In this document: positions 41,453-64,000 of the stretch, piece by piece | Position numbering within the stretch: position 1 is the stretch's first letter | How the letters are laid out: every line of letters begins with the position of its first letter | DNA from: an uncultured Candidatus Saccharibacteria bacterium | GTDB taxonomy: Bacteria; Patescibacteriota; Minisyncoccia; Phycocordibacterales; UBA12088 | Length of the DNA: 64,000 nucleotides | Reading direction: 5' to 3' | Assembly (NCBI GenBank): GCA_964411375.1 | Contig: CAYPKR010000002.1 | Location: 205,259 to 269,258, forward strand | Translations under genes and position numbers: made by a program | The notes under the pieces: model-generated | Databases searched by the model: none | The model's input: only the letters and a program-made list of their open reading frames with translations | Told to the model about the DNA's origin: nothing

Positions 41453-41533
41453 GTAATCCACAGCTTTCATAGGAATTACCCTTAGGCTCCTTGGTACAAT
41501 ACAGGTAATTAATTACTAGAATAGCCTTCGCCT

Positions 41534-41791: not shown

Positions 41792-41845
41792 AACTCCTCT
41801 CTTGAGCATACACAAAAAATCTGCGCACTCGCGCAGATTTTTTGT

Positions 41846-43302: not shown

Positions 43303-43305
43303 AGT

Positions 43306-43557: not shown

Positions 43558-43563
43558 AGGTAA

Positions 43564-45614: not shown

Positions 45615-45623
45615 AGTAGATGA

Positions 45624-45926: not shown

Positions 45927-45941
45927 GGTTGGAAAAAATTA

Positions 45942-46976
45942 TTAGAGTTTTTTTGCTGCAGAGACCACGTGTTCGACAAGCGCATAGGTGTATCCCATTT
46001 CGTTGTCGTACCACGCAAGCACCTTGCAGAGCGTGCCATCGACTACTTTGGTAAAGGAAAGATCTGCAATCGACGCAAACGGGCTTCCCAGAATATCGCT
46101 TGAAACAATATCTTCTTCAGTTGTCGTGAATACTTTGCTCCACCTCGAATCTCCTGCCGCTTTCTTCAATAGTGCATTTAATTCTTCAACCGAAGTTGCT
46201 CGCTTTGAAACAAATGTAATATCCGCAATTGATCCCGCAACAACGGGTACGCGAAACGAAAGTCCGTCAAACTTTCCCGTAAGATCTGGAATCGCTTTGG
46301 TAACCGCAATTGCAGCGCCGGTTGTGGAAGGTACGATATTTTGTGCCGCAGCTCTTCCCTCTCTAAAATCTTTTTTATTCGGACCATCAACAATTGATTG
46401 GCTTGCGGTATATGCATGCACGGTTGAGAGAATTGCGCGCTCAATCCCAACTCCTTCGTGAAGAATTTGCATTACCGGAGATGCCGCGTTCGTTGTACAT
46501 GACGCGTTCGATGTAATAGTTGTTCCCGAAAATGAATCTTCATTGATGCCCATCAAAATCGTTGCGCCAGACATTCCTGCTGGAGGATCGTCTTTGACTG
46601 GCGCGGTAATGACGACTCGCTTCGCGCCCTGATCAAGGTGTACTTTTGATTTTTCATAACTCGTAAAAAGTCCGGTTGATTCGACAACGATGTCGATATT
46701 CATTTCTTTCCACGGCAATTTAGTCGGATCTTTTTCCGAAACAACGAGTACTTCAGCGGTACCGTTGATTACGAGAGCCGGTTTTGGATCGGTTTTAAAT
46801 GTGACCGCAAACGGACTTCTGCCATACACCGAATCATATTGGAGGAGATACGCGAGATTTGCGATATCGCCAAGGTCATTGACCGCAACGATTTCTAATT
46901 CGGGATTATCTTTTGCAATCTTGTAAAATGCGCGGCCGATTCGGCCAAAGCCATTAATGGCGACTCTGGTTTTCAT
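45942..46976 (-). CDS. gap: Glyceraldehyde-3-phosphate dehydrogenase
   Basis: VAINGFGRIGR Rossmann fold and the catalytic SNASCTTN. I trimmed the start to MKTRVAING. Confidence 0.9.
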   Translation of the reverse strand: MKTRVAINGFGRIGRAFYKIAKDNPELEIVAVNDLGDIANLAYLLQYDSVYGRSPFAVTFKTDPKPALVINGTAEVLVVSEKDPTKLPWKEMNIDIVVESTGLFTSYEKSKVHLDQGAKRVVITAPVKDDPPAGMSGATILMGINEDSFSGTTITSNASCTTNAASPVMQILHEGVGIERAILSTVHAYTASQSIVDGPNKKDFREGRAAAQNIVPSTTGAAIAVTKAIPDLTGKFDGLSFRVPVVAGSIADITFVSKRATSVEELNALLKKAAGDSRWSKVFTTTEEDIVSSDILGSPFASIADLSFTKVVDGTLCKVLAWYDNEMGYTYALVEHVVSAAKKL

Positions 46977-47023
46977 ATAAAATAGTATACCGTGGTCTGT
47001 TTCGGAAGACCAAACACACGCCA

Positions 47024-50000
47024 CTACGGAATACTATCGGGGGCAGTAATCCAACAGTTGAGACCGGCGCAGTTGCGTAATTGACCTAATCTTGTCGCTA
47101 GATCTGCTTGTACCGATGTATATGCCGGTGTTCCCGCTTTATTTAGAAGCTCATATGGATCAATCAGCAAGTCATATAATTCTTTCTGGTTGTTATCATG
47201 TTCAACATATGTGTATCGTGTCGTACGCACCGCATCAAATCCAGGAGTGCCTGGAATGAGTGGATCATAATCGAGCGTCCCGTCCATTCGTACTGCGGTG
47301 CGCCATGTCGGATCTGCACCTTCGAGGAGCGGTACCAGGGAGCGACCATCGAATGTGACTGTCTGGTGCGCATCTGCGATATCAACAATTGTTGGAGCGA
47401 TATCAACATCACTGACTAGTTTTGTATTGACGGCATGAACGACTCCTGGCCCTCGTACAACAAGGGGAAGCCGGATAGATTCTTCAAAGAACGACTCTTT
47501 ACCTGAAGCTATCCGATGCTCACCTGCATACCACCCGTTATCCGAAAGATACAGAATATATGTATTGCTGAGCTTGCCGATTGACTGCAGCTTTTGTATG
47601 AGGCTTTCGACACCATCGTCGACCGACATAAGAGAAGCGAGGCGCTTGCGATACTTTTGGGTAATTGCGGCAATTTGAACCGTAGTAAGGAGTGGTTGGT
47701 TTGAGGTGATAAATGCAGGCTTATCTGACATATCGGCCTCATTAAAATTAGGCAATCGCGGCAATGGTTCGCTTGAAAATGCGGCCATGTATCGCGGTGC
47801 GGGAATTGGATCGGTTGTTGGAGTGTTGGTTAAATCATCGTGAGGTGCCAAATAGGCCAGCTGTATATAGAATGGCGATGTGGTATTCCTTTGAGACTCG
47901 AGGAAATTCAATACCTTGGCAGTAAGTACGTCAGTCATGTACTCACTAGGATTTGACCCATAATTGCGTATAGTGCCGTTCTCATTAATTGCATAGTTGT
48001 AGTAGGAATGAATAAGGTGATCGCCTGAACGTGGCACGCCATTCCATTCATCCCAGCCAGGCGGTACGTGTGATGCAGGATAATCATCTGCACCTCCATA
48101 GAAGTTGAAATATTTCCCGTAAAACGCATTTGTATATCCCACATTTTTCAGCCATACCGGCAGGGCTTTACTCTCGCGGAATCCAGTTGCGAGTGAAGCA
48201 GGTGGTGGTGACTGCTTGGTTATGCCGTGGTTTTGGGCATACATTCCGGTAAGGAGTGTCGTGCGCGCTGGACAACAAAGCGAAAGATTGTCTATGTAGT
48301 TAGTGAATTGAACGCCTTGATCTACGAGCAAGGATTTAACCTTGGGCATTTTTGATAAGCTGGCATAGTCTTGGTCATCCGTTACGATCAGCACGATATT
48401 CGGCTTTGTAGTTGCTAAACCTTTTGTAAACACTGCTGAAGCGATCGCGCTTGGAGTAAGACCTGTCTTCCATGCTCCGACTTTTATGGTCTTAGTATCG
48501 GTTAGAGTAATGGGCGCCGTATAGACGGCACTTGCTTCGGTCGGGGTACTGCCATCGAGTGTATAGTGCATGGTTGCGTCAGCGGTTGTTACTGAAAGAG
48601 TAACGGTCTGCGAGGCGGTGAATGTCCCGCCTGCAGGAGATATTGTAGGGGTGGCCACAATAGTCGGCTCACCGGTTGTTCCGCCGACTGTACCACCAAC
48701 CGTTCCTCCGGTTGTTCCGGTAGTGAAGAATCCAGTCACGACGCCACCGCCGCCAATCGGATTAATGATCGCTTGGAGTTGCCAAAAGTTTGTTGCGCAA
48801 AAAGAGTCGCGGCAGCCGCATTTCCATGCGCCGCCGACAAAGGTACACGAGTATGCTGCAAAGAACGTATAAAAAGATGGCGAGCGAAGATCGGCATTTT
48901 CGATAGTGGTGTGCGCGCCGACAAGCAGCCAATTCCCTCCCGTTCCTGGAGCGGGAGTTCCGGTAAATGTAATTGGCACCCATGCGGCACCAGTCCATCT
49001 GAATCCATTTTTATAGACATATTTTTGGGTGGCGGTGTCGGGAGTCTCAAAACTAAATGTCGCATCTCCCGCTGTATTGCACGCAAAATTAAGCAGCGTT
49101 TCTTTCGCTCCACCGAATACGTTGTACGCGGCGCCATATCCCGACGGAATAGTAGCGGCGTTGGTATACCGTTCAGTGCATCCGTACGACGGAACAGTGA
49201 ATGTGGTTCCGACCGTAGCGCCGCCGGAAGTCACGCCAGTAGCAACCCCCCCCGTCGTCCCCACTCCCGTCCCCGTCGTAACAGTACCCGCAGTACCAAC
49301 GGTTCCATGTCCATCACCTCTCCACAGGGTTTTGTATACCGCGATAGGATCTTGCCCTGATTCGTTTGCCGGCCATGCGGAATAAATACTGCCGTCTCCT
49401 TGGTCGAAGTAATCTTCGTGATCAAGAATATCTTGGTTCGCATTAAAGAATGCGTAGGTGAAGCGGATGACGTCCGCCGGATGTGTGGAAGCGGCGGCGC
49501 CTTCGCGGCGCGGCGCCCATTCGGGAAATACCATTCGAACTCCTTGCGCTCTCGCGAATGCCACAATTTCGTTGAATCCCCAGAATCCTGCATTGCCTGC
49601 AAGGATTTGGTTCCAGTTGTTTCCTGGCGCTGTTGCTGATTCCCCCTGCACTCGCACCATCGAGCTGTCATGCCACGATGCGCCGACAAAATCGATTTGT
49701 TTCCCGATGGGGCCAGGAGGAAGCACCGTGATTCCGTTGATGATTCGAGTACCAGGGCTCCAACTGGCAACATTGTTTGGCCAGAGTTGTTCGTGGCGAA
49801 TGGTGCTGCCCCCACCACGACGATCGGAATTGATGAACTGGAGTTGTGGACGGAATGCGAAATAGTAATTTGGATATTGTCCGCGCTGATATTTGTATCC
49901 TTCTTTAAATACGCGGATCCATCTCGCCCATGCATATGGAAAATCCTGATACGTGAAATGCTTTCCGGTTGCGTCAGTATATGAGCCTTCAGGAGATTTG

Positions 50001-50623
50001 CCGTGCGTCTCGAGCGTAAATTCATAGAACCAGTCCATGGTCATTGGAAACGCCGGATCGCCGTCGCGCTGATCGAGGTATGCGAACTTTCGTCCGAGGA
50101 GAAAGAGGTATTTGTCCGCGTCCCCGTTTTTGATATCCCGATAGATTGTCGGGTTCGCGTATGTGGAGCCAGTCCATCGATTGCCGAGTGTTGAAGGAAT
50201 TGGTTCTGCCCAGTCGAGATGAATGATGCGCTTTCGGTGCACGGTTGCGGGATAGTCGCCCCAAATGTGGCGGAACCATCCTTCGTCCTGGAACACGCCG
50301 TGGAAAAGCGGCGGATCCGCGTTCCATGCTGCGGGAGTGCGGTTGAAATCGCGATCCGTTTCGGCTTCGCTGTCGGCGCCGCCAACATTCGGCCATGTGA
50401 CGACATCTCCCATTCCTTGGGTCACTGAATCTGGTTCGTGACCCATGAGATCGATGTAGTTCTGCATATGATCAGAGCTGCCGTTGATCCAGCTACCGGC
50501 ATTCCATGGCATGCCGCTTTTGCCGACGTGTCCAGAAAAGACAGCCGCGTATACTGGCTTTCCAATGATACCCGCAACAAAGACAAGGATGCCCAAAAGA
50601 AGCGGGATGGCGAAGAATTTCAT
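47024..50623 (-). CDS. Secreted multidomain protein: GH-like N-domain, shared 6-Cys module, Fn3/CHB_HEX_C-like domain, C-terminal sulfatase
   Basis: A signal peptide MKFFAIPLLLGILVFVAG. The sulfatase carries the formylglycine motif SLCCPARTTLLTG and DDQDY. The shared module matches CTERY...YGAAYNVF...WKCGCRDSFC. Confidence 0.8.
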   Translation of the reverse strand: MKFFAIPLLLGILVFVAGIIGKPVYAAVFSGHVGKSGMPWNAGSWINGSSDHMQNYIDLMGHEPDSVTQGMGDVVTWPNVGGADSEAETDRDFNRTPAAWNADPPLFHGVFQDEGWFRHIWGDYPATVHRKRIIHLDWAEPIPSTLGNRWTGSTYANPTIYRDIKNGDADKYLFLLGRKFAYLDQRDGDPAFPMTMDWFYEFTLETHGKSPEGSYTDATGKHFTYQDFPYAWARWIRVFKEGYKYQRGQYPNYYFAFRPQLQFINSDRRGGGSTIRHEQLWPNNVASWSPGTRIINGITVLPPGPIGKQIDFVGASWHDSSMVRVQGESATAPGNNWNQILAGNAGFWGFNEIVAFARAQGVRMVFPEWAPRREGAAASTHPADVIRFTYAFFNANQDILDHEDYFDQGDGSIYSAWPANESGQDPIAVYKTLWRGDGHGTVGTAGTVTTGTGVGTTGGVATGVTSGGATVGTTFTVPSYGCTERYTNAATIPSGYGAAYNVFGGAKETLLNFACNTAGDATFSFETPDTATQKYVYKNGFRWTGAAWVPITFTGTPAPGTGGNWLLVGAHTTIENADLRSPSFYTFFAAYSCTFVGGAWKCGCRDSFCATNFWQLQAIINPIGGGGVVTGFFTTGTTGGTVGGTVGGTTGEPTIVATPTISPAGGTFTASQTVTLSVTTADATMHYTLDGSTPTEASAVYTAPITLTDTKTIKVGAWKTGLTPSAIASAVFTKGLATTKPNIVLIVTDDQDYASLSKMPKVKSLLVDQGVQFTNYIDNLSLCCPARTTLLTGMYAQNHGITKQSPPPASLATGFRESKALPVWLKNVGYTNAFYGKYFNFYGGADDYPASHVPPGWDEWNGVPRSGDHLIHSYYNYAINENGTIRNYGSNPSEYMTDVLTAKVLNFLESQRNTTSPFYIQLAYLAPHDDLTNTPTTDPIPAPRYMAAFSSEPLPRLPNFNEADMSDKPAFITSNQPLLTTVQIAAITQKYRKRLASLMSVDDGVESLIQKLQSIGKLSNTYILYLSDNGWYAGEHRIASGKESFFEESIRLPLVVRGPGVVHAVNTKLVSDVDIAPTIVDIADAHQTVTFDGRSLVPLLEGADPTWRTAVRMDGTLDYDPLIPGTPGFDAVRTTRYTYVEHDNNQKELYDLLIDPYELLNKAGTPAYTSVQADLATRLGQLRNCAGLNCWITAPDSIP

Positions 50624-50681
50624 GCATATATATTGTACCGCCTAGTGGTTCGAGGCGGTGGGAGGTGGTGTGGATTTAATT
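49247..50681. repeat. Copy 1 of a perfect 1,435-bp direct repeat (copy 2 at 57697..59131)
   Basis: The antisense ORFs 49231..50025 and 57681..58475, and others, are identical (offset 8,450 bp). The repeat covers the 5' 1.4 kb of two paralogous genes plus ~58 bp upstream. Confidence 0.85.
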
Positions 50682-50700
50682 CATTCAGACTTAACGCTAT

Positions 50701-53700
50701 TTAAATGGAATTTGGTCCAACTTGACTCACATTGAGCTCAACGGCTGGTATCCATGTCTCCGCGGTAGTTGGAAATTCCTGCACATTCGTATAGTGACCC
50801 GGAATATAATTTACCGCGCCAACGTGCGCTTCGATGCGTCCGTCCTTCACTACCGGTCCCCCGCCATCGCCTTTCCCAATTATGATGGTGCCTCGATTCC
50901 CCGCCATCAACCAATTGATCGATTGTTCTGGAGTTTGTGAGACAGTGTCACCCGGATCGCGGGCAAGTACCTCCATACGATCCCCTTCAAAATTATTTCC
51001 AATTACTCGCTGATTGGCGCCTTGTCCAACAATTGCGCCAGTTGATTGCCTGATGAAATTGGAGATAACAATATTGTTCGAACCGTTTCTAAGAACAATG
51101 CCGCCTTTGACATTTTTGACAGTATTTCCGCGGATAATATTTCTTGAGGATTTAATCGATATGCAGTCATCAGTAAATAGGTTGTTGGTTACGAGATTAA
51201 GTTCAATGACCGCGAGCATCCCTTGCGCAGAGTTGGAATACGTTTGACCGACTTGTATACACTCTTCAAGATTGCCGCCAGGACCAGCTTGTCGGTCATG
51301 TACATAGTTGCGATCGACAAGAGTATTCCGTGCTCCGTCAGTTGTATTCGTATCAAAGCCGATTCCTTGGGTTGAATAATTGCCAATCTCATTCCGGTCA
51401 ATGCGGCAATATTCGCATGTCCTTGAAATGTTAATTGCATTACGGTCGGTAGTGTTAATAAATAGGTTTCTAGACACTCGATCATGCGTACCGGTTACGT
51501 TAATTCCTGTTCCGCCTTGAAATTTCATTCCTTCGAGAATAACGCAGGTACCGCCAACGGTGAATTCTCCCATAAATACTGGCGAAAGACGATTCAGCGC
51601 CCGTATCACAATTGGCTGCGATTTCGTTCCTGTACGATTAATGCTGAAATTGCCCAAATAGGTATTGTCTCCAACCAAAATCAAATCTCCTGCATTTGCT
51701 CCCAAAAGGGCTTGGGAGAGTTCAGTGGCATTATTGACGGTGATTGGAGCGCGCGGAGATGTTGGAATTATATCCACACACCCTGGTGTTTCCTCCGGAG
51801 GCCATGGATAACAATTCGATCCGGTACAGGCCGGCTCCGGTCCAGATGTGCCTCCTCCGGTAGTACCGCCAACAGTGCCTCCCCCTGGTGTTCCGCCACC
51901 GGTGCTGAAGAAAAATCCTCCGTTTGGATTTTGCGTTGCTTGGAGTTGCCAGAAATGGACTGTACAAAATGTGTCACGACAACCGCAGTTCCAACTGCTA
52001 TTGGCAAAGGTGCAAGTGTATGCGGCAAAAAAGGTGTACGCGGGAGATGGGCGAAGATCGGCGTTTCGAATGGTTGTTGTTGCTCCCATCCGAAGCCAGT
52101 TTCCTCCGCTTCCTGGAACAGGGATTCCTTCGAAGGTAAACGGCACCCACGAACCGCCATTCCATCGATAGCCGTTTTTGTAGACATATTTAGGGGTGGA
52201 AGTGTCCGGTGTATTTATTGAAAACGAAACATCGCTCCCCGGACCATCACAGCTGAGATTAAGGAGAAGTTCTTTTGCGCCGCTAAATACATTGTACGCG
52301 GCGCCATATTTGGCAGGAGTGATAGTGTTATTGTCAAAACGCTCGTGGCATGGCTCAAATCCAATCGATGCCGCAGATCCAACGCCCCCTGTAACCGTAC
52401 CTCCCGTCCCCGTTCCCCCAGTAGTCCCCGTGGTGCCAGTGCCAGTCGTAGCTGTTGTTCCCGTTCCTATCGGAGCACCTGTTCCGTTTATTTCGAGTAC
52501 GAGCAGATAATCTGGAATTTGAACATCCATTGTGGTGATTCCAGCATCGTTGGTAACGGTCTGTATTACATTTGCATTAAATGAAGGCTCGTACGTATGG
52601 ACAGCAGTAACTCTTGAATTAAAATGCACCGTTACCGCCTTCCGTGCCGGCTCTATGTCAGCTGGTCCGTTTGAACTACTCACCGCTTGCCATAAGACAA
52701 GATAAAAGACCCCGTTACGCTTTTGAAGCAATAGTTGCTGCACGTTAGCGGTGTCACCAGAAAGCGTGTAATCAAGCCCGCTTGTCGTAAATGGCGCGCC
52801 AGGATCTTTAAAGAGATTGATGTAATTTTTAATCGCGGTGAATTGTTGGCGCACAGAACCATCATGGTTTATGATGCCGAGTTCATCGGATTGTCCGTTG
52901 TCGACGAGTTGATAAATATATACGCGCGGTGAGTTATGGGTGAGATGCCATAAAAATTCACGCGGAAAATATTTTGCAGCCGCACGTTCTGAGACTGCAC
53001 GGTGACCGGGATCATCAGGAAATTTTCGATATCCGACTTCGGTTGCCCACACCGGCTTTGCGCTTCCATACCGGTTCAAATCAAGAGCGCGAACATCAGT
53101 GATTCCCCATCCGCCGCCGCCCGGGCCTTCAGGATACAGTCCGGCGGGATAGTCGTGCGAATTCCCGACATCCATGTAATTTGCCGCGTCAGTAAATGTG
53201 CTTTGAAAAATACCTGGCGAATTGCTGGTGTGTGCAAACGATGCCCCAAGATATGGAATATTTCTTGTTATTGCGTCCGCTTTTACGCGCGGATACATGT
53301 CTTTGATGTAATTGCGTTGATTGGTCTGCCATCCGGTATCATGAATGTCACGCTCGTTTGGAGGCTCAATCCCATCGACAACATTTATCGTCGCATTCAG
53401 ATCGCGAATAACCGCAAGGTCATCAGCTCCATGATACCCCTGATACAACAAGGTGATACCGTTGTTAGTGCGTAAATCTTTCCACTTTGCTCGAAGGGCG
53501 GTCGACGGAATGCCACCGCCGCCGTTGTCACGAATATGTCGAATACCGCTTTCAATCAATCGCGGCTTAACGATGTCGTCGTAGTGCATACCATAAATCG
53601 TATCGGTGTAATCGAGATGAACGTTCACTCCGACTTCGTCAGCGGCAAGATCAGACATTATTGCAGGAACCACCGCGCCAGAAACCTGCGGCGTGAGTAT

Positions 53701-53793
53701 TAATAATGCCCTGCCCCCGCTAAACCATTCGGTAACTCCTAGAAAACCAGCGACAAGGAATGTGGCAATGCCGAAAAAACGGAAGATCGTCAT
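50701..53793 (-). CDS. Secreted multidomain protein: GH-like TIM-barrel N-domain, shared 6-Cys module, C-terminal parallel beta-helix (lyase-like)
   Basis: A signal peptide. WATEVGY looks like a catalytic Glu. The shared module reads CHERF...YGAAYNVF...WNCGCRDTFC. PbH1-like repeats (NNFEG, GNTVKN, NNIVISN) form the beta-helix. Confidence 0.7.
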   Translation of the reverse strand: MTIFRFFGIATFLVAGFLGVTEWFSGGRALLILTPQVSGAVVPAIMSDLAADEVGVNVHLDYTDTIYGMHYDDIVKPRLIESGIRHIRDNGGGGIPSTALRAKWKDLRTNNGITLLYQGYHGADDLAVIRDLNATINVVDGIEPPNERDIHDTGWQTNQRNYIKDMYPRVKADAITRNIPYLGASFAHTSNSPGIFQSTFTDAANYMDVGNSHDYPAGLYPEGPGGGGWGITDVRALDLNRYGSAKPVWATEVGYRKFPDDPGHRAVSERAAAKYFPREFLWHLTHNSPRVYIYQLVDNGQSDELGIINHDGSVRQQFTAIKNYINLFKDPGAPFTTSGLDYTLSGDTANVQQLLLQKRNGVFYLVLWQAVSSSNGPADIEPARKAVTVHFNSRVTAVHTYEPSFNANVIQTVTNDAGITTMDVQIPDYLLVLEINGTGAPIGTGTTATTGTGTTGTTGGTGTGGTVTGGVGSAASIGFEPCHERFDNNTITPAKYGAAYNVFSGAKELLLNLSCDGPGSDVSFSINTPDTSTPKYVYKNGYRWNGGSWVPFTFEGIPVPGSGGNWLRMGATTTIRNADLRPSPAYTFFAAYTCTFANSSWNCGCRDTFCTVHFWQLQATQNPNGGFFFSTGGGTPGGGTVGGTTGGGTSGPEPACTGSNCYPWPPEETPGCVDIIPTSPRAPITVNNATELSQALLGANAGDLILVGDNTYLGNFSINRTGTKSQPIVIRALNRLSPVFMGEFTVGGTCVILEGMKFQGGTGINVTGTHDRVSRNLFINTTDRNAINISRTCEYCRIDRNEIGNYSTQGIGFDTNTTDGARNTLVDRNYVHDRQAGPGGNLEECIQVGQTYSNSAQGMLAVIELNLVTNNLFTDDCISIKSSRNIIRGNTVKNVKGGIVLRNGSNNIVISNFIRQSTGAIVGQGANQRVIGNNFEGDRMEVLARDPGDTVSQTPEQSINWLMAGNRGTIIIGKGDGGGPVVKDGRIEAHVGAVNYIPGHYTNVQEFPTTAETWIPAVELNVSQVGPNSI

Positions 53794-53846
53794 GATGTAT
53801 ATATTGTACCGTCGAGTCGCTTTGAATTAGCGAGAGTGGTGTGGAT

Positions 53847-56375
53847 TTACGGACAGAGGTCGTCCGCATCCCCATTTGGTCCGACGTTTCCCGGACCGAG
53901 ATTCAGTGTTGGAGCGGTAGCTGCGGGATTTACATTTTGAGTTGCGGGTACGGAACATCCCTCTGCTCCAACAGCGGCGTCAGAATTACCATTTAAGTCA
54001 ATTCCTTCCGGACAACGAGTAGGTTCGCGACGCGGATTAAATTCAAGATATCCAATACGGAGTTTGTCTGATGCGGTAGTAAATACATTTCCCCATATTT
54101 TGGTACGTACTGCATTCGCATGATTTGCTCCAGGAGGGACTTCGTCAGGAAGGCAATCTCCGAGAGAGAACGTACAGTCTCCCGATCCCGCCCAAAATCC
54201 TTGAATACTGCCTTGAAATACGTTGCTCACGAAGAAGTTGTCCGTGTCGAAACTAAAGGCTCCCACATTTTCAAAACGATTATTGAAAAACACGTTCCGC
54301 TGCCCATGTCGAACACCGGTACGATTTTCAGTACCTGCGACAACATTATTTTCGATAACGTTCTCAGTGGATTTCAAGTAGAATCCGTATTGCCGCTTGT
54401 CAGATGAATCGACGTAATTTTTTTCAATCAGCGACCGAGAAATTGATTCTCGCTGCTTGTTTACGAGTCCGAGATAGACATTGATGCCTCCTGATGAAGT
54501 CTGCGGATTGGTGACTCCGCCCCTAAAGAAATTGTGATCAATGCGATGATAGTACGGATTCGAAGTGCCATCCGCGATGTTGATCTGAATATCTTCCTTA
54601 GTATCGCTGGTGCCTGCGTCAAGAATATTTCGATCAATGCGTATATTTCGAGCGTCACTTGCGGTATCGATTATTTTCTCGCCCGGAGCAGAGAGGAAAT
54701 TATTTCCCGTAACACGAACATTGTTTCCATTCACCTGTAGTGTAACTCCAACAAATGTAAATCCTTTGATGACAACGTAATCTCCATTGATGGTGAGCGT
54801 GCCTCCGCTAAATGTCCCTCCTGGAACAAATACCAGCGGATTTGCTGCGGTACCGCTTTGGTTGATCACTCGAGTAGCAGGAGAAAGTGTTTGAGCTCCA
54901 GTCATCGAGTAACATATTTTTGCGGCATTCGCTTTAACGATTCCATACCATGTCGGCGGCGTAAATACGCCTCCAGTCCATTCAGATCCTCCGCCAGTGC
55001 CGCCTGTCGTTCCGGCCGTTGTTCCGCCGACTGTACCACCAACCGTTCCCCCAGTGGTTGCGCCGCTGGTACCACCGCCACCGAAGAAAATATCACTACC
55101 GATTGGATTTCGAATTGCTTGAATTTGCCATCCATTGAATATGCACATAGCGTCGCGGCAGCCGCACTTCCATGCGCCGCCAGAAAAAGTACATGAGTAC
55201 GCCGCAAAAAAAGTAAACACATTTGCTGGGCGCAAATCAGTATTGTTAATACGCGCCGACGCGCCCATCAACAGCCAATTTCCTCCCGAGTCCGGAGCAG
55301 AAGTTCCGGTAAAAGTTATCGGCACCCATGCGGCACCATTCCATCTGAAGCCAGTTTTGTACACATACTTTTGATCGCTTGCGTCATCGCTGTTGACTGA
55401 AAACGTTGCATTCCCGACTGAGTCGCAATTAAAGCGCAGTAACAATTCATGAGTAGTGTTGAATATATTGAAAGCGGCACCGTATCCTGCGGGCGGAACA
55501 ACCGAACTCGTATACCTTTCATTACAGGTAAGCGGCGGGGCGCCGACAGTGGCAAACGTTGCAGTCGTTCCGCCAACCGTTCCTGTTGTACCGACCGTAG
55601 TTCCCGTCGTTACTGTTCCTCCAGTTGTTGTAGTCGTTGTGCTTGCTTGCAGTGCAGTTGCGATTGCAAGTGCGATTTTTTTTGCACCTTGCTCGTTGGT
55701 ATGGAGCCGATCAGCAAAATCCGGATCGGTTGCGCTAGGCATAGTGCCTGGGAACACTTGATCTAATCGCACAAGAATATCGTATTTGGAAGTATCGCTT
55801 AGGATGAGCGTATTGAGCGTTCTGCGCTTCAAATCAATTGCATCCGCTTCTGATTGCGGCGGATTGCTGAACGGATAGAAGGGATGAATGGTGAAAGCGA
55901 CCACCGTAAACCCGTCGGCATGCGCCATCGCCCACAGCGTTTTAAGATCAGTGTATGTTTCCTCCGCGGTACGAGCGGGACCTCCCACTCCGCTTCCTTG
56001 AATGTCGTTGATTCCTCCATAGATGATGTAGTACGCCTTCTTATCTGCTGCTGGCTTATGCGGACGCGCTTCGGTTGGATATTCGGTGAGCATTTGCTTC
56101 ACCTGTTCGCCGGCTGCAGCAATGTTGAAGATGCTTGCGGAAGAATACCAGGTAATATATTGACTGATATAATTCACCCAATCGCCTGGCCTTCGAGGAT
56201 CTGTCGGCAAACCAACAGATCCATTTGAAAGGCTATCTCCTTCAATGACTACAATATCCGCTCTGCCTCCGGGCGCTGTTTGCGCATGTAAATGAATAGA
56301 TACGCCAATGAAAAATACCGCGATGAAGAGAAGGGTTACTCGAGGCAGTATGGTACGTATGTTGTATGTCGACAT
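53847..56375 (-). CDS. Secreted multidomain protein: SGNH/GDSL esterase N-domain, shared 6-Cys module, C-terminal beta-helix
   Basis: A signal peptide and VVIEGDSLSNGS (the GDSL block). The shared module reads CNERY...YGAAFNIF...WKCGCRDAMC. It abuts the upstream gene within ~5 nt and is probably cotranscribed with it. Confidence 0.7.
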   Translation of the reverse strand: MSTYNIRTILPRVTLLFIAVFFIGVSIHLHAQTAPGGRADIVVIEGDSLSNGSVGLPTDPRRPGDWVNYISQYITWYSSASIFNIAAAGEQVKQMLTEYPTEARPHKPAADKKAYYIIYGGINDIQGSGVGGPARTAEETYTDLKTLWAMAHADGFTVVAFTIHPFYPFSNPPQSEADAIDLKRRTLNTLILSDTSKYDILVRLDQVFPGTMPSATDPDFADRLHTNEQGAKKIALAIATALQASTTTTTTGGTVTTGTTVGTTGTVGGTTATFATVGAPPLTCNERYTSSVVPPAGYGAAFNIFNTTHELLLRFNCDSVGNATFSVNSDDASDQKYVYKTGFRWNGAAWVPITFTGTSAPDSGGNWLLMGASARINNTDLRPANVFTFFAAYSCTFSGGAWKCGCRDAMCIFNGWQIQAIRNPIGSDIFFGGGGTSGATTGGTVGGTVGGTTAGTTGGTGGGSEWTGGVFTPPTWYGIVKANAAKICYSMTGAQTLSPATRVINQSGTAANPLVFVPGGTFSGGTLTINGDYVVIKGFTFVGVTLQVNGNNVRVTGNNFLSAPGEKIIDTASDARNIRIDRNILDAGTSDTKEDIQINIADGTSNPYYHRIDHNFFRGGVTNPQTSSGGINVYLGLVNKQRESISRSLIEKNYVDSSDKRQYGFYLKSTENVIENNVVAGTENRTGVRHGQRNVFFNNRFENVGAFSFDTDNFFVSNVFQGSIQGFWAGSGDCTFSLGDCLPDEVPPGANHANAVRTKIWGNVFTTASDKLRIGYLEFNPRREPTRCPEGIDLNGNSDAAVGAEGCSVPATQNVNPAATAPTLNLGPGNVGPNGDADDLCP

Positions 56376-56379
56376 ATGT

Positions 56380-59073
56380 TTAATCGGCGCAAGCAGTGAG
56401 GCTGATCCCCAGTGACGATGCGGCAAAATTTTTCGATGCAATCCACCAGCCCAATGTTTTATCCCACGGCTTTCTTGTGTGATCGCTCATGGAAGTCAGT
56501 GTTCCCCACACCGCAACCCCTTGAGTAAGGGGACGGAGATGTTGTAATTGATAGTCCCAAAATGTCTGCGAGACATACGGCACCGAATCAATCTCAAACT
56601 GCGGCCAAATGTATGGAATTACTGTCTTTCCGGGACCGAGTGCTTTGTAGGAGTTGATTCGACCAGTCGCCATTGTATTCCATAATTCTGGATTGGATCC
56701 CATATCAAGATCTGCTGCATAGAGCGATGGCTGAAGAAAATCTTGCGAATTGATGAACGCTTGTGCTGCTCCCGATCTGCTGCTAATTTCTCGTGTCATG
56801 AATGGTGCGCCGTAATAGCCAAACTGGGTACGAGTATCTCCTCGCGCGCGCACTGCAGTACGAAGACCATTTATTGCTTGCACGTATTTTGCAGCGTCTG
56901 CATCGCTAAAACCGATTCGATCTGCATCACGCCAAATCTCGATATCGATAGATACATAATCAAGGTTCGCCGCAACAATATTTGCTGCGGTAGCATCAAC
57001 ACGAGCCTGATTATAATTATTATTTCCATCAAGCAATTCCGAAGGATTCACAATATCCAATCCTCCAGACAGACCGCAATTCTTTAAGTTCGGCTCACCG
57101 GTAAATGCAATAGTGTCATACATTTTCCATGTTCCCGGAGGAGGCGCCGTTGTTCCTCCCGTTGCAGTGGTGCCAGTCACCGTTCCGCCAGTTACTACCA
57201 CGCCGGTAGTACCGCCAATTGCAGAGCGCATCGCTTGAATTTGCCAGAAGTGAACGCCACAAAAAGAATCGCGGCAGCCGCATTTCCATTCAGAATTTGA
57301 AAATGTACAAGTGTATGCGACAAAGTATGAAAATCGATCTTGCGGAAGTAGATCACTGTACGGAATAGTCACGTGTGCTCCCATCAAAAGCCAATCGGGT
57401 GACCCCGGCGCAGCAGTTCCTTCAAACGTGAATGGCACCCATGAACCGCCGTTCCACCTGAACCCAGTTTTGGAAACATATTTCTGGGTGGCGGTGTCTG
57501 GAGTATTTACTGAGAGTGTGAGATTGCCATTTGAATCACAAACCGTGCGAATTAATAATTCACGATATCCGCTAAATACATTGAATGCTGCACCGTAATT
57601 ATTTGGAATGCCAGCAGCGTTGCTATAGCGCTCGGTACAACCTCCGAAAAAAGGAAGCGTTGTTCCCGAACCTCCAACCCCTACTCCAACTGTGGTTCCC
57701 CCCGTCGTCCCCACTCCCGTCCCCGTCGTAACAGTACCCGCAGTACCAACGGTTCCATGTCCATCACCTCTCCACAGGGTTTTGTATACCGCGATAGGAT
57801 CTTGCCCTGATTCGTTTGCCGGCCATGCGGAATAAATACTGCCGTCTCCTTGGTCGAAGTAATCTTCGTGATCAAGAATATCTTGGTTCGCATTAAAGAA
57901 TGCGTAGGTGAAGCGGATGACGTCCGCCGGATGTGTGGAAGCGGCGGCGCCTTCGCGGCGCGGCGCCCATTCGGGAAATACCATTCGAACTCCTTGCGCT
58001 CTCGCGAATGCCACAATTTCGTTGAATCCCCAGAATCCTGCATTGCCTGCAAGGATTTGGTTCCAGTTGTTTCCTGGCGCTGTTGCTGATTCCCCCTGCA
58101 CTCGCACCATCGAGCTGTCATGCCACGATGCGCCGACAAAATCGATTTGTTTCCCGATGGGGCCAGGAGGAAGCACCGTGATTCCGTTGATGATTCGAGT
58201 ACCAGGGCTCCAACTGGCAACATTGTTTGGCCAGAGTTGTTCGTGGCGAATGGTGCTGCCCCCACCACGACGATCGGAATTGATGAACTGGAGTTGTGGA
58301 CGGAATGCGAAATAGTAATTTGGATATTGTCCGCGCTGATATTTGTATCCTTCTTTAAATACGCGGATCCATCTCGCCCATGCATATGGAAAATCCTGAT
58401 ACGTGAAATGCTTTCCGGTTGCGTCAGTATATGAGCCTTCAGGAGATTTGCCGTGCGTCTCGAGCGTAAATTCATAGAACCAGTCCATGGTCATTGGAAA
58501 CGCCGGATCGCCGTCGCGCTGATCGAGGTATGCGAACTTTCGTCCGAGGAGAAAGAGGTATTTGTCCGCGTCCCCGTTTTTGATATCCCGATAGATTGTC
58601 GGGTTCGCGTATGTGGAGCCAGTCCATCGATTGCCGAGTGTTGAAGGAATTGGTTCTGCCCAGTCGAGATGAATGATGCGCTTTCGGTGCACGGTTGCGG
58701 GATAGTCGCCCCAAATGTGGCGGAACCATCCTTCGTCCTGGAACACGCCGTGGAAAAGCGGCGGATCCGCGTTCCATGCTGCGGGAGTGCGGTTGAAATC
58801 GCGATCCGTTTCGGCTTCGCTGTCGGCGCCGCCAACATTCGGCCATGTGACGACATCTCCCATTCCTTGGGTCACTGAATCTGGTTCGTGACCCATGAGA
58901 TCGATGTAGTTCTGCATATGATCAGAGCTGCCGTTGATCCAGCTACCGGCATTCCATGGCATGCCGCTTTTGCCGACGTGTCCAGAAAAGACAGCCGCGT
59001 ATACTGGCTTTCCAATGATACCCGCAACAAAGACAAGGATGCCCAAAAGAAGCGGGATGGCGAAGAATTTCAT
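56380..59073 (-). CDS. Secreted multidomain protein: GH-like N-domain (identical to the one in 47024..50623), shared 6-Cys module, C-terminal TIM-barrel-like domain
   Basis: The N-terminal 465 aa are identical to those of the 1199-aa paralog. The shared module reads CTERY...YGAAFNVF...WKCGCRDSFC. Confidence 0.7.
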   Translation of the reverse strand: MKFFAIPLLLGILVFVAGIIGKPVYAAVFSGHVGKSGMPWNAGSWINGSSDHMQNYIDLMGHEPDSVTQGMGDVVTWPNVGGADSEAETDRDFNRTPAAWNADPPLFHGVFQDEGWFRHIWGDYPATVHRKRIIHLDWAEPIPSTLGNRWTGSTYANPTIYRDIKNGDADKYLFLLGRKFAYLDQRDGDPAFPMTMDWFYEFTLETHGKSPEGSYTDATGKHFTYQDFPYAWARWIRVFKEGYKYQRGQYPNYYFAFRPQLQFINSDRRGGGSTIRHEQLWPNNVASWSPGTRIINGITVLPPGPIGKQIDFVGASWHDSSMVRVQGESATAPGNNWNQILAGNAGFWGFNEIVAFARAQGVRMVFPEWAPRREGAAASTHPADVIRFTYAFFNANQDILDHEDYFDQGDGSIYSAWPANESGQDPIAVYKTLWRGDGHGTVGTAGTVTTGTGVGTTGGTTVGVGVGGSGTTLPFFGGCTERYSNAAGIPNNYGAAFNVFSGYRELLIRTVCDSNGNLTLSVNTPDTATQKYVSKTGFRWNGGSWVPFTFEGTAAPGSPDWLLMGAHVTIPYSDLLPQDRFSYFVAYTCTFSNSEWKCGCRDSFCGVHFWQIQAMRSAIGGTTGVVVTGGTVTGTTATGGTTAPPPGTWKMYDTIAFTGEPNLKNCGLSGGLDIVNPSELLDGNNNYNQARVDATAANIVAANLDYVSIDIEIWRDADRIGFSDADAAKYVQAINGLRTAVRARGDTRTQFGYYGAPFMTREISSRSGAAQAFINSQDFLQPSLYAADLDMGSNPELWNTMATGRINSYKALGPGKTVIPYIWPQFEIDSVPYVSQTFWDYQLQHLRPLTQGVAVWGTLTSMSDHTRKPWDKTLGWWIASKNFAASSLGISLTACAD

Positions 59074-59125
59074 GCATATATATTGTACCGCCTAGTGGTT
59101 CGAGGCGGTGGGAGGTGGTGTGGAT

Positions 59126-61105
59126 TTAATTTTGAATTACCTCCCTATTCGCCGGAACGCCCGTTCCCTCCACCGTACAGCTCCCTATTTGCTCTCCTGG
59201 ACTAAAGGAAACCACTGAGACAGTCTTCCCTTGGAATCCTTCGAAACTATTACTTACAACACTGACCTTGCGAATGTTCTTAATAAGAACACCAATGAGA
59301 CCGCCTCCGCTAAACGTGTTTTTGGTGATCATTGCTTCATCGGAAGTTATATTTTGGCAGTCATTGGTATTGGTCGATGAAATTGGTTCTTGTCCTGGCT
59401 CAATGCAATTTCGTCCACATGAAATAAATGTATTGTTTTCAATAAGCGCATATCCGACGCCTTCCTTTAGGGAGATAGCGTGATTAAAGCCTCCGTTGAA
59501 AGTATTGTTTGCGATGTAAATGGACTTCGCATTGTAGATGCGGAACCCGTAATCCATCGTGTAATTTTTTGAGCCATTGCTGAGCGTACTTTCGATTCTG
59601 TTAGAATCGCTGTACACATCATTAGCTACAAGTTGGATGTTCACTTGATTAGCAGGATCTCCTAAGTTAACAACAAGACCGCTGCTGACAAGATTTCGAA
59701 ATGACGAGTTCTGTACTCGAATGTTTTTTGAATCTTCAAGAGTTAGGTAGCCTCCCGTCCATGCGAGACCATCCAAAACTATTCCATCCGAATTCGTAAT
59801 ATTCGGAACTCCAGTACTTCCCCCATTGAAATTACACTGCCTTACTGCAATACATTTGAGGGTTAATACGCCTCCCGTGTGACCGTTTATTCGCAGCATC
59901 CCGTAATTTCCTGGACTAAGATTGAGAATTCGACAACCGGCTCCAAGATTTGAACTAAGGGATGATGGCGTCACCGACACTGGAGAACCGCACGGCGTAA
60001 TCTCAGGGAAACCTGGAGGAGCTGGAAGTTCCGCGCCATCAGTTGTGGTGTCGGAAGCAGTACCCGCAGTGGCTGTTCCGCCCAAAGCACTCATCGAACA
60101 GGCCGGAGATCCTTTCAAAGTAGAACGCACCAAAAATCCTTCAGCTGCCGTGCCATACTTAAAGTTGCGGAATATCGCTGCTTCCACAAAGTATGCGACG
60201 CCCCATCCATCTGGTCGATCCGTTATTGGGACTGGATCAAATGAAAGCGGCTGCCAGACAAGCTCTCCGGTGACTCCATTGCGGGTGGCCATCTGAATAA
60301 ATTTATCTTTGTAGCTTACCGTGAGCGTTATGCCGCTCCACGTGACCGTAATCGGACTATCGATGCCAAGATCGGCAAGAGTATTGGTTGATGCCAAAAT
60401 CCGATTTGCTTCCTCCATCGAAAGCCCGGACGAATCCCCTGTTCGTTGCTGGATTATTAATGCGAGATCGGAAGGAGTAACGCCAAGTTTTGTCACCGAA
60501 TCTGTCGGTAGAAGAGTGATGGTCGTAAATGGGACCCATTCATCTCCTGAAGGACCGCATCCTGGACCTGGAGTAAGGACGAGTGGTGAGCGAAACGCTT
60601 GAAGTTGCCACAAACTAACTCCGCACACTGCGTTGCGGCAGCCGCACTTCCATGCGCCATTTACAAAAGTACAGGTGTAGCCGGCAAGAAAATTGTACAT
60701 GCCTGCTGGTCGAAACACGCTCTTTGCGATTGTGGTGCTTGCGACTGCTTTGAGCCACGCGCCGCCCGTTCCAGGAACCGGTACGCCGTGCATGATGACT
60801 TCGACCCAATGAGTTCCGTCCCATCGATATGCGGTGCGGTAGACGTATTGCGGATTGGTCGTATCCTCCGACCCTTCCATAAACAAAGCATCGTTTGTTG
60901 GACAAGACGTATTGAGAATTAATTCTCGAATTGTAGAAAATACATTATATGAGGTCGCATATCCTGGTGGGGTCAGCATAGTATTGTCGTACCGCGGTTC
61001 ACAACTTACTTGAGCAACAACCGAGGGTGTATGCGAAGAAAACAAAATATATCCAATGCCAAGACATAGGAGTGAAATAAGAAATACGCGCACCGACAAT
61101 TTCAT
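59126..61105 (-). CDS. Secreted protein: N-terminal shared 6-Cys module followed by a parallel beta-helix domain
   Basis: A signal peptide. The shared module reads CEPRY...YATSYNVF...WKCGCRNAVC. PbH1-like repeats (NNTF.GG, NSF.G) form the beta-helix. Confidence 0.65.
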   Translation of the reverse strand: MKLSVRVFLISLLCLGIGYILFSSHTPSVVAQVSCEPRYDNTMLTPPGYATSYNVFSTIRELILNTSCPTNDALFMEGSEDTTNPQYVYRTAYRWDGTHWVEVIMHGVPVPGTGGAWLKAVASTTIAKSVFRPAGMYNFLAGYTCTFVNGAWKCGCRNAVCGVSLWQLQAFRSPLVLTPGPGCGPSGDEWVPFTTITLLPTDSVTKLGVTPSDLALIIQQRTGDSSGLSMEEANRILASTNTLADLGIDSPITVTWSGITLTVSYKDKFIQMATRNGVTGELVWQPLSFDPVPITDRPDGWGVAYFVEAAIFRNFKYGTAAEGFLVRSTLKGSPACSMSALGGTATAGTASDTTTDGAELPAPPGFPEITPCGSPVSVTPSSLSSNLGAGCRILNLSPGNYGMLRINGHTGGVLTLKCIAVRQCNFNGGSTGVPNITNSDGIVLDGLAWTGGYLTLEDSKNIRVQNSSFRNLVSSGLVVNLGDPANQVNIQLVANDVYSDSNRIESTLSNGSKNYTMDYGFRIYNAKSIYIANNTFNGGFNHAISLKEGVGYALIENNTFISCGRNCIEPGQEPISSTNTNDCQNITSDEAMITKNTFSGGGLIGVLIKNIRKVSVVSNSFEGFQGKTVSVVSFSPGEQIGSCTVEGTGVPANREVIQN

Positions 61106-61179
61106 ATTTCATTCATTGTAGCTCTTTTTAAGAGTATGTTCTGGAGGAGTATGGGGATTTCGCCACACCAACACCTCGA

Positions 61180-62622: not shown

Positions 62623-62694
62623 GCAACTAGTATACCTTTCTATTGAATGAAAGGTTCAAAAAAATATTGTGCGGGTGGGGATTATGCAAATATT

Positions 62695-63999: not shown

Positions 64000-64000
64000 T

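What the first reader, a model, noticed from the sequence alone, without database searches (positions are those of the whole stretch)
49247..59131. Perfect 1,435-bp direct repeat shared by two paralogous enzyme genes (49247-50681 and 57697-59131)
The 5' 1.4 kb (465 codons, the GH-like N-domain) plus ~58 bp of upstream sequence is identical at every base in two genes 8.45 kb apart. Identity ends exactly in the Gly/Thr-rich linker (TVGTAGTVTTGTGVGTTGG). Beyond that point the two genes carry different downstream domains: the 6-Cys module plus sulfatase in one, and a diverged 6-Cys module plus a TIM-barrel domain in the other.

This suggests very recent gene conversion or domain shuffling through the repetitive linker DNA. 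It also creates a substrate for deletion or duplication of the intervening 8.4 kb. It could alternatively be an assembly artefact of collapsed or chimeric paralogs.
Basis: seen in the sequence. Interest (0 to 1): 0.6.

Follow-up and report, generated by a model that had tools for sequence, protein, structure and literature searches.

The report
Recently copied enzyme domain between neighbouring genes
Two neighbouring genes for secreted multi-domain enzymes in a Saccharibacteria-like bacterium share a base-for-base identical 1.4-kb front end, which is a very recent copy of one catalytic domain joined at a flexible linker: a clean but not unprecedented example of domain shuffling.

Summary
Window 49248-50681 and 57698-59131 are identical at all 1434 bases, one base shorter than reported. 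Each copy covers 58 nt of leader, the start codon and 458 codons of minus-strand genes A (47024-50623) and D (56380-59073).

Identity stops abruptly on both sides. The upstream flanks are unrelated. Downstream, the rest of the linker cannot be aligned, and the adjacent 6-Cys modules are old paralogues (62% nt, synonymous sites saturated).

An independent k=31 short-read assembly of public run SRR12487045 gives three contigs. They match the window perfectly and end exactly 30 nt inside the repeat. So three of the four repeat junctions exist in reads, and the graph branches at both ends.

The shared domain is a TIM barrel closest to GH26. It is rare, with 16 homologues found.

A syntenic relative (L013) carries the orthologous sulfatase tail behind a different N-domain. 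It also has two GH26-like copies only 75% identical, both C-terminal.

Best reading: a real, very recent duplicative domain replacement joined in the Gly/Thr linker, at the longest G-run in the window. The direction of copying is unresolved.

Exact identity could be slightly overstated by assembly. The domain Y "TIM barrel" claim is unconfirmed.

This is a known kind of event, comparable to the Caldicellulosiruptor glucan degradation locus. Interest is moderate.

The parts
49248..50681 (-). Repeat copy 1 (R): 58-nt leader, signal peptide, GH26-like domain and the first half of linker 1 of gene A
   Evidence: Exact 1434-bp identity with 57698-59131. Logan contig L011 ends at 50652, 30 nt inside it.
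57698..59131 (-). Repeat copy 2 (R): the same cassette at the 5' end of gene D. Its first 6 nt (AATTAA) are the last sense codon and the stop codon of upstream gene E.
   Evidence: Logan contigs L010 (ends at 59102) and L012 (starts at 57727) each overlap it by exactly 30 nt.
47024..50623 (-). Gene A, 1199 aa. Order of parts: SP, GH26-like domain (49313-50536), G/T linker 1, 6-Cys module (48770-49180), G/T linker 2, CHB_HEX_C (48434-48637), S1 sulfatase + SGSH_C (47075-48403).
   Evidence: ORF, translation, Pfam, module coordinates. Identical to library protein P0020.
56380..59073 (-). Gene D, 897 aa. Order of parts: SP, GH26-like domain (57763-58986), G/T linker 1, 6-Cys module (57232-57639), G/T linker 2, orphan domain Y (56383-57129).
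   Evidence: No Pfam hit. Identical to library protein P0021.
50701..53793 (-). Gene B, 1030 aa, inside the 8.45-kb interval: unassigned N-domain, 6-Cys module (51937-52350), chondroitinase-B-like beta-helix
   Evidence: The exact protein is on Logan contig L011.
53847..56375 (-). Gene C, 842 aa from the ATG at 56375, inside the interval: GDSL esterase, 6-Cys module (55116-55526), beta-helix
   Evidence: A length of 842 aa matches library protein P0019.
59126..61105 (-). Gene E, 659 aa, upstream of copy 2: SP, 6-Cys module (60596-61003), middle region, beta-helix
49246..49253 (-). G8 run (C8 on the + strand) at the 3' edge of copy 1. It is the longest G/C homopolymer in the window.
57698..57703 (-). 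G6 run at the 3' edge of copy 2. Identity ends after the sixth G.
48675..48706 (-). 32-nt exact match in linker 2 of gene A with linker 2 of gene C (55018-55049). It is a second, small linker-borne repeat.
   Evidence: (family D5). Logan contigs L011 and L012 break there.
55018..55049 (-). Partner of the 32-nt linker match, in linker 2 of gene C

Best explanation
The repeat is real. It records a very recent, non-reciprocal copy of a 1.43-kb cassette from one gene of a tandem array of modular secreted enzymes into another. The cassette holds a 58-nt leader, a signal peptide, a GH26-like (beta/alpha)8 catalytic domain and the first 21 residues of a Gly/Thr linker.

The downstream joint lies in the low-complexity linker DNA, at a G-run that offers up to 6 nt of microhomology. 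The upstream joint lies in unrelated intergenic or 3'-coding DNA. The event therefore looks like a duplicative domain replacement (microhomology or illegitimate joining, or template switching). It does not look like conversion inside an older pair of homologues.

The result is two bifunctional secreted enzymes that share the same glycosidase-like head. One head is tethered through a 6-Cys module to CHB_HEX_C plus a sulfatase. The other is tethered to an orphan domain. The two 1.4-kb direct repeats should also allow RecA-type deletion of the 8.45 kb between them, which holds the D tail and genes C and B.

Shown: the identity, the abrupt edges, three junctions in independent contigs, the fold of the domain, and the different domain partners in relatives.

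Inferred: the joining mechanism, the direction of copying (D to A is weakly favoured), secretion, enzymatic activity and recombinational instability.
For: - There are 0 differences in 1434 bp. That gives dS = 0 over about 309 synonymous sites, against dS of 1.4 or more (up to saturated) for all pairs of the adjacent 6-Cys modules. The A versus D modules are 60% aa and 62% nt identical.
- The flanks show no residual homology: 400 nt upstream gives z = 1.2 and the remaining linker gives z = 0.9. Homology resumes only inside the module.
- The Logan k=31 contigs of run SRR12487045 match the window with 0 mismatches. L010 = 59102-64000+, L011 = 50652-55047 and L012 = 55020-57727. Each stops exactly 30 nt (k-1) inside the repeat, as expected at a true branch. 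L012 was retrieved by predicting its truncated gene product in advance.
- Comparative data come from the syntenic contig L013 (GAPDH 94% aa, sulfatase 86-87% aa, dS about 1.2 for both). Its sulfatase gene P0023 has the same 6-Cys/CHB/sulfatase tail behind a different, B-type N-domain. L013 also has two GH26-like domains that are 75% identical to each other, both at C-termini.
- The Saccharibacteria MAG locus L005 is also syntenic and has yet another arrangement.
- The identity edge coincides with the longest G/C homopolymer in 64 kb.
- The domain fold comes from an AF2 model with pLDDT 86 and Foldseek matches to GH26 at E 1e-10. hhalign against a Pfam-positive GH26 gives 95% probability over the PEW nucleophile region.
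- There is no similarity to plasmids or phages. No inverted repeats or transposase are present.
Against: - The fourth junction (repeat to A tail) could not be retrieved. It is only implied by the branch that terminates L012.
- The A C-terminal part and GAPDH are not on record for that run.
- If the source assembly resolved the locus as a graph loop, both copies would be printed from one collapsed node. A few real SNPs could then have been erased, so '0 differences' may be by construction.
- The nearest comparator is distant (dS about 1.2), so the ancestral N-terminus of A is inferred weakly.
- Codon style of the linker does not resolve the direction of copying.
Confidence: 0.7

Rival explanations
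1. Homogenising gene conversion. Under this reading, A and D both carried older, diverged GH26-like N-domains. One or more conversion tracts then overwrote one copy with the other across the whole homologous region.
For: - Paralogous GH26-like copies coexist in the relative L013 at 75% identity, so a pre-existing pair is plausible.
- The 6-Cys modules look mosaic between paralogues. The P0023 module mixes A-, B- and C-like stretches.
- A and C share a 32-nt exact linker stretch.
- Perfect repeats would keep converting one another.
Against: - A conversion tract should end inside pre-existing homology and leave diverged margins or a gradient. Here identity is 100% up to both edges and then drops to random or unalignable sequence.
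- The orthologue of A in the relative has a non-homologous N-domain.
Confidence: 0.15
2. Assembly artefact. Either only one copy exists, or the two copies are similar but not identical paralogues that were collapsed in the graph and written out twice.
For: - A 1.4-kb perfect repeat cannot be spanned by ordinary short-read pairs.
- The locus has loop topology (E-R-U-R-A), which an assembler can resolve by traversing the same node twice. That would make the copies identical by construction.
- The full-length A and D products are absent from the contig index.
Against: - The two upstream contexts (E|R and B|R) and the R|D-tail junction are each present in independently assembled contigs that end exactly k-1 nt inside R. 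Branches therefore exist at both ends.
- The unique segment D tail-C-B is bounded by R on both sides, which requires two R copies on a linear chromosome.
- Bubble popping can hide only SNP-level differences, so the copies would still be nearly identical.
Confidence: 0.1
3. Population mixture. The reads come from cells with a single-R chromosome (E-R-A tail) plus an excised circle, a tandem form or a second strain that carries R-D tail-C-B. The contig would then be a composite.
For: The same four junctions are produced by the recombination products of the repeat. Without spanning reads, the graph cannot tell these apart (inference).
Against: - A non-replicating circle would not persist at assembly-level coverage.
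- This scenario still presupposes the two-copy arrangement as the parent.
- The three contigs show no sequence heterogeneity against the window (0 mismatches in 12.7 kb).
Confidence: 0.05

Closest known systems
Glucan degradation locus (GDL) of Caldicellulosiruptor: CelA-CelF type multi-modular glycoside hydrolases
   Same: Both are tandem genes for large secreted bifunctional enzymes, built from catalytic domains joined by a shared non-catalytic module and low-complexity linkers. In both, kb-scale repeated sequence is shared between neighbouring genes. [quoted passage not shown] It also says a 1-kb sequence present in several places can cause unintended deletion of neighbouring genes.
   Different: - The phylum differs: a Saccharibacteria-like organism rather than Firmicutes.
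- The linkers are Gly/Thr-rich rather than Pro/Thr-rich.
- The shared module is an uncharacterised 6-Cys domain, not CBM3.
- The catalytic domains differ: a GH26-like fold, sulfatase, GDSL esterases and beta-helix lyase-like domains rather than GH9/48/5/10.
- None of the domains is homologous to those of the GDL. This is an analogue, not a member.
Glycoside hydrolase family 26 (mannanases, lichenases, xylanases; clan GH-A)
   Same: - The best structural matches of the shared domain are GH26 enzymes (2cip, 2v3g, 2bvt, 1gvy and others; Foldseek E 1e-10 to 1e-6).
- A profile-profile match to Pfam-positive GH26 domains of L013 aligns the invariant P-E-W with their P-E-F.
- Two glutamates, E201 and E368, are invariant in the family.
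   Different: - There is no Pfam PF02156 hit even at E = 10.
- Identity to solved GH26 structures is about 12%.
- The domain is about 410 aa with large insertions.
- Only 16 homologues were found in 5.8 billion proteins.
- Activity and substrate are unknown.
Intragenomic gene conversion or segmental duplication between bacterial paralogues (for example tufA/tufB and rRNA operons; own knowledge)
   Same: Both involve identical or near-identical kb-scale copies inside one chromosome, kept or created by recombination. In both, direct repeats are substrates for deletion or duplication.
   Different: Here the copied unit is one domain plus its leader, placed in front of unrelated downstream domains. 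The flanks are non-homologous, so a new chimeric architecture was created rather than an existing gene pair being homogenised.

Membership tests
Dispersed direct segmental duplication | Two copies in the same orientation with near-100% identity over a length far above chance | tested here: met
   1434/1434 identical, offset 8450 bp, both on the minus-strand gene orientation
Dispersed direct segmental duplication | Flanks of the two copies are unrelated, so the copy has discrete end points | tested here: met
   Upstream 400 nt gives z = 1.2 and the remaining linker gives z = 0.9 against shuffles
Dispersed direct segmental duplication | Both copies are supported by sequence data independent of the assembly in hand | tested here: inconclusive
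   Three of four junctions lie in Logan contigs that end k-1 nt inside the repeat. The fourth junction and the coverage could not be retrieved.
Gene conversion between pre-existing paralogues | Paralogue-level homology continues beyond the converted tract on both sides | tested here: not met
   There is none upstream. Downstream there is none for about 60-70 nt, and then old paralogy of the 6-Cys module at 62% nt.
Gene conversion between pre-existing paralogues | The orthologous gene in relatives carries the same (homologous) domain at that position | tested here: not met
   The orthologue of the A tail (P0023 in L013) has a B-type N-domain instead. The comparator is distant (dS about 1.2).
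Glycoside hydrolase family 26 | Match to the family sequence model (Pfam PF02156) above its threshold | tested here: not met
   No hit at E <= 10
Glycoside hydrolase family 26 | (beta/alpha)8 barrel most similar to solved GH26 structures | tested here: met
   AF2 pLDDT 86. The top 25 Foldseek PDB hits are almost all GH26, with E down to 9.5e-11.
Glycoside hydrolase family 26 | Two catalytic glutamates: an acid/base and a nucleophile | tested here: inconclusive
   E201 (YExTL) and E368 (PEW) are invariant in 15 sequences. E368 aligns with the PEF of Pfam-positive GH26 domains. No residue-level structural superposition was available.
Glycoside hydrolase family 26 | Demonstrated glycosidase activity | not testable with these tools
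   Needs biochemistry
S1 (formylglycine) sulfatase, C-terminal part of gene A | Pfam Sulfatase model above threshold and the C-x-P-x-R maturation motif | tested here: met
   PF00884 at 146 bits and PF16347 at 72 bits. The motif reads C-C-P-A-R in 'NLSLCCPARTT'.
Insertion sequence / transposon | Transposase gene, terminal inverted repeats and target-site duplication | tested here: not met
   No inverted repeats in 45000-64000. The repeat encodes only the enzyme head. There are no plasmid or phage matches.
Caldicellulosiruptor-type modular enzyme locus | Tandem multi-domain secreted enzymes sharing a module between low-complexity linkers, with kb-scale repeats between genes | tested here: met
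   Five adjacent genes carry the 6-Cys module between G/T linkers, plus the repeat
Caldicellulosiruptor-type modular enzyme locus | Homologous building blocks (CBM3, GH9/GH48/GH5, PT linkers) | tested here: not met
   Pfam finds none of these. This is an analogy only.

The most novel reading that the evidence does not exclude
The Gly/Thr-linker DNA, with its G-run at the joint, may be a preferred exchange and slippage site. Such a site would let these reduced-genome epibionts recombine catalytic heads and tails within the array. It would also let them toggle their secreted enzyme set in the population in two ways. One is loss or gain of the 8.45-kb segment through the perfect repeats. The other is +/-1 slips in the G8/G6 run, which truncate A or D to a stand-alone GH26-like enzyme of 463 or 483 aa. 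That would amount to a cassette-type variation system for extracellular enzymes.
Probability: 0.1. Interest if true: 0.65.

Novelty: new member of a known kind. Interest (0 to 1): 0.4.

Why it matters
The locus catches domain shuffling at a very early stage, with both joints still readable. One joint sits in a low-complexity linker at a homopolymer run. The other sits in unrelated DNA. Related genomes show the same domain in other positions. This gives a concrete test case for how modular extracellular enzymes are rebuilt.

The organism belongs to a Saccharibacteria-like lineage whose small genomes are usually thought to be poor in paralogues and repeats (own knowledge).

The locus also flags three uncharacterised building blocks for biochemical follow-up:
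- a rare GH26-related domain family;
- a 6-Cys module present in about 1000 representative proteins;
- an orphan C-terminal domain.

It marks an 8.45-kb segment that is likely to be unstable in culture or in assemblies. If the repeat proved to be an artefact, none of this would follow except the domain inventory.

Tried and rejected
- **Mobile element origin.** No inverted repeats, no transposase domains and no plasmid or phage similarity. Rejected.
The exact-sequence look-up does not hold truncated products; the positive control also failed. The A C-terminal product and GAPDH are not on record. The fourth junction therefore stays indirect.
- **Direction of copying from the codon style of the linker.** R versus the A remainder gives p = 0.13 and R versus the D remainder gives p = 0.76. 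Not significant.
- **Fold of domain Y.** No Pfam, PDB-sequence or database homologue. The single-sequence AF2 model has pLDDT 47, and the best Foldseek E is 0.04, with scattered TIM-barrel enzymes among the weak hits. The 'TIM barrel' call is neither confirmed nor refuted.
- **Homologue search with the whole D tail.** It was swamped by low-complexity linker words and gave one weak hit.
- **Promoter and terminator scan of the array.** Fewer sites than in shuffled sequence, so it was uninformative.
- **Literature look-ups.** Run SRR12487045 gave no hit. Saccharibacteria sulfatase/GH arrays gave nothing relevant.
- **Related loci in metagenome and genome collections.** Only 5 loci were found and none is close enough to serve as a strain-level comparator.


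Full report
**Observation.** A direct comparison at offset 8450 shows one uninterrupted identity run, 49248-50681 = 57698-59131. It is 1434 bp long with no mismatch, and the repeat finder seeds the same pair. Both copies lie at the 5' ends of minus-strand ORFs: gene A at 47024-50623 (1199 aa) and gene D at 56380-59073 (897 aa). In gene orientation the repeat comprises 58 nt of leader, the ATG and 458 codons plus 2 nt. It ends in the peptide ...TVGTAGTVTTGTGVGTTGG. Identity in 50-nt windows drops from 1.00 to 0.18-0.36 at once on both sides. The only other repeated stretch of 30 nt or more in the 64-kb window is a 32-nt match between linker 2 of gene A (48675-48706) and linker 2 of gene C (55018-55049).

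**Context.** The repeat sits in an array of at least five co-oriented genes. In transcription order these are E, D, C, B and A, followed by GAPDH, RpiB, Rpe and a split transketolase.
- Each array gene encodes a multi-domain protein with an N-terminal hydrophobic leader.
- Each contains a ~137-aa module with six invariant cysteines, usually flanked by Gly/Thr-rich linkers on both sides (in E it follows the leader directly).
- Pfam recognises CHB_HEX_C plus an S1 sulfatase (with SGSH_C) in A, including the C-C-P-A-R motif.
- Pfam recognises chondroitinase-B-like beta-helices in B and C, a weak, sub-threshold beta-helix match in E, and a GDSL esterase in C.
- Pfam recognises LamG/GDSL proteins upstream (genes F and G).
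- The shared N-domain, the 6-Cys module, the N-domain of B and the C-terminal 'domain Y' of D have no Pfam match even at E = 10.
- The rest of the window is ordinary chromosome: SMC, DnaE, GyrB, PheT, aminoacyl-tRNA synthetase and tRNA-Thr.
- The stretch 36355-47024 is syntenic with a contig of an uncultured Candidatus Saccharibacteria MAG (L005; GAPDH 83% aa). It is also syntenic with a Logan contig of run DRR274965 (L013; GAPDH 94% aa). The organism is therefore Saccharibacteria-like. This rests on synteny and protein identity, not on a marker phylogeny.

**What the shared domain is.**
- The domain family is rare. There are 16 hits at E <= 1e-3 in 5.8 billion proteins, the best at 80% identity.
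- An AlphaFold model built on 15 sequences has mean pLDDT 86.
- Its best PDB matches are almost exclusively GH26 lichenases and mannanases (E 9.5e-11 downward, about 12% identity), followed by other clan GH-A barrels.
- E201 (Y-E-x-T-L) and E368 (P-E-W) are invariant.
- A profile comparison with the Pfam-positive GH26 N-domains of two L013 proteins gives 95% probability (E 1.8e-8). It aligns P-E-W with their P-E-F.

'GH-like' is thus supported at fold and remote-homology level. Membership of GH26 by the family model is not met.

**How old the copy is.** All ten pairs of the five 6-Cys modules are 41-64% identical in protein and 51-66% in DNA, with dS from 1.4 to saturation. A versus D gives 60% aa, 62% nt, dS 3.3 and dN 0.34. 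The module begins only 58-67 nt beyond the end of the repeat. Across the repeat, dS is 0 over about 309 synonymous sites. For scale, the window and L013 differ by dS of about 1.2 in both GAPDH and the sulfatase. The two GH26-like paralogues inside L013 are 75% identical, with dS saturated. The identity in the window is therefore an outlier that reflects a very recent event.

**Real or artefact.** The exact products of genes F, E and B are on record on contigs of the Logan (k = 31) assembly of public run SRR12487045. These contigs match the window without mismatch.
- L010 = 59102-64000 and beyond.
- L011 = 50652-55047.
- Each ends exactly 30 nt (k-1) inside a repeat copy.

From this I predicted a third contig that should start at 57727 and carry a truncated gene whose product begins at codon 450 of D. 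That product (window:56380-57726:-) is on record on contig L012, which spans 57727-55020. All the other contig ends fall k-1 nt inside the 32-nt linker repeat, as the 30-mer analysis predicts.

Three of the four junctions (E|R, B|R, R|D tail) therefore exist in an assembly made by a different program. The graph branches at both ends of R. The unique segment D tail-C-B is bounded by R on both sides.

The fourth junction (R|A tail) is only implied. L012 would not start at 57727 unless R had a second successor. The relevant truncated products could not be looked up.

One reservation remains. The locus has loop topology, so a short-read assembler could have written one collapsed node twice. In that case SNP-level differences between the copies would have been lost. 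'Identical at every base' therefore needs reads, whereas 'two nearly identical copies' does not.

**Domain shuffling.** A profile of the five modules finds 1034 representative proteins (E <= 1e-3) out of 1.84 billion. Their partner domains are varied: beta-helix, F5/8-C, fn3, esterases, peptidase M64 and Kelch. This pattern fits an accessory binding or anchoring module; that reading is an inference.

Among the hits is P0023 (1195 aa). Its tail is orthologous to the tail of A: the module is about 70% identical, CHB_HEX_C 82% and the sulfatase 86-87%. Its N-domain, however, is of the B type (53% to B), and the switch lies in linker 1.

Its contig L013 also carries two further genes in which the GH26-like domain is C-terminal, behind a 6-Cys module. 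These domains are 80% and 71% identical to the window domain. In L005 the gene next to GAPDH is again ...linker-6-Cys-linker-GH26-like, and that 622-kb MAG contig ends inside G/T-linker DNA. In P0001-P0003 the module precedes the domain, while several more distant homologues are single-domain proteins.

In this lineage the same catalytic domain has therefore been joined to different partners repeatedly, always at linkers.

**Mechanism.**
- There is no detectable homology upstream of the repeat. The 3' ends of B and E give z = 1.2.
- There is none in the remainder of linker 1 (z = 0.9).
- Identity shows no decay towards the edges.

A conversion tract between older homologues should end inside homology and leave diverged margins. 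The pattern fits a single duplicative replacement better.

The downstream edge falls in a G-run, G8 in A and G6 in D. These are two of only three G/C runs of 6 or more in the whole window, and G8 is the longest. This suggests joining or template switching at microhomology, which is an inference.

The upstream edge is 58 nt before the ATG. In copy 2 it includes the last codon and the stop codon of E. In copy 1 the same AATTAA lies 19 nt after the stop of B.

Direction is unresolved. The relative favours D to A, because there the A orthologue has another head, but that relative is distant. Linker codon style is not significant.

Nothing points to a mobile element.

**Consequences (inferred).** The cell makes two secreted enzymes with the same GH26-like head on different partners. 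The array as a whole holds lyase-like beta-helices, esterases and a sulfatase. It looks like a toolkit for a substituted (sulfated or acetylated) polysaccharide.

Recombination between the 1.4-kb direct repeats would delete the D tail, C and B and leave E followed by a single head-A-tail gene. A +/-1 slip in the G-run would truncate A or D to 463 or 483 aa, which resembles the single-domain homologues.

**Comparison with known systems.** The closest described analogue is the glucan degradation locus of Caldicellulosiruptor. There, neighbouring multi-modular enzymes share modules and linkers. Expansion 'through gene recombination after duplication' has been proposed, and a repeated 1-kb sequence can cause deletion of adjacent genes (PMC7142884). 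The present locus shares the logic but none of the building blocks.

It is a new member of a known kind of event, in an unusual host and with uncharacterised domains.

**Unconfirmed detail.** Domain Y has no homologue at all in the searches run. Its single-sequence model is poor (pLDDT 47) and the fold search is not significant. An alternating beta/alpha pattern in the first 125 residues, and weak TIM-barrel hits, are its only support.

Noticed in passing
window 49246-49253 and 57698-57703: The 3' edge of the repeat coincides with the longest G/C homopolymers of the window: G8 in gene A and G6 in gene D. Only one other run of 6 or more exists in 64 kb. A +/-1 slip would truncate A or D to a stand-alone signal-peptide plus GH26-like protein of 463 or 483 aa.
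   Followed up: partly
window 48770-49180, 51937-52350, 55116-55526, 57232-57639, 60596-61003: An uncharacterised ~137-aa module with six invariant cysteines (C1, C34, C112, C121, C123, C128) and no Pfam match. It is present in five adjacent genes and in 1034 representative proteins of a 1.84-billion library. Its partner domains are very varied, including beta-helix, F5/8-C, fn3, esterase, peptidase M64 and Kelch.
   Followed up: partly
window 48675-48706 and 55018-55049: A 32-nt exact match (45 nt at 91%) between the second Gly/Thr linkers of genes A and C. Their modules are also the least diverged pair (dS 1.4). This may be a trace of an older exchange through linker DNA.
   Followed up: partly
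window 56383-57129 (gene D residues 649-897): Domain Y is an orphan. It has no Pfam hit, no PDB-sequence hit and no homologue among 5.8 billion proteins. The single-sequence structure model has low confidence.
   Followed up: yes
L013 1853-4732 and 11361-14570; L005 282-1919: Syntenic relatives place the GH26-like domain at the C-terminus behind a 6-Cys module. In L013 these same proteins also have a Pfam-positive GH26 domain at the N-terminus. The 622-kb Saccharibacteria MAG contig behind L005 ends inside G/T-linker DNA, as expected if such linkers break assemblies.
   Followed up: partly
window 50701-53793 (gene B residues 1-440) and L013 4817-8404 (P0023 residues 1-430): A second unassigned N-terminal domain family (B-type) has no Pfam match. 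Its motifs (…PPNERD…, …WATEVGY…) are reminiscent of clan GH-A enzymes; this resemblance is from memory and was not tested. The window and L013 copies are 53% identical.
   Followed up: no
window 50624-50681 / 59074-59131: The 58-nt leader inside the repeat contains a 6-bp inverted repeat (CCGCCT...AGGCGG) and no obvious Shine-Dalgarno sequence close to the ATG. The consensus promoter/terminator scan found nothing there.
   Followed up: no
window 42316-47024: The array abuts a conserved pentose-phosphate/glycolysis block: GAPDH, RpiB, Rpe, and transketolase split into N- and C-terminal genes. The same block is found in both syntenic relatives.
   Followed up: partly
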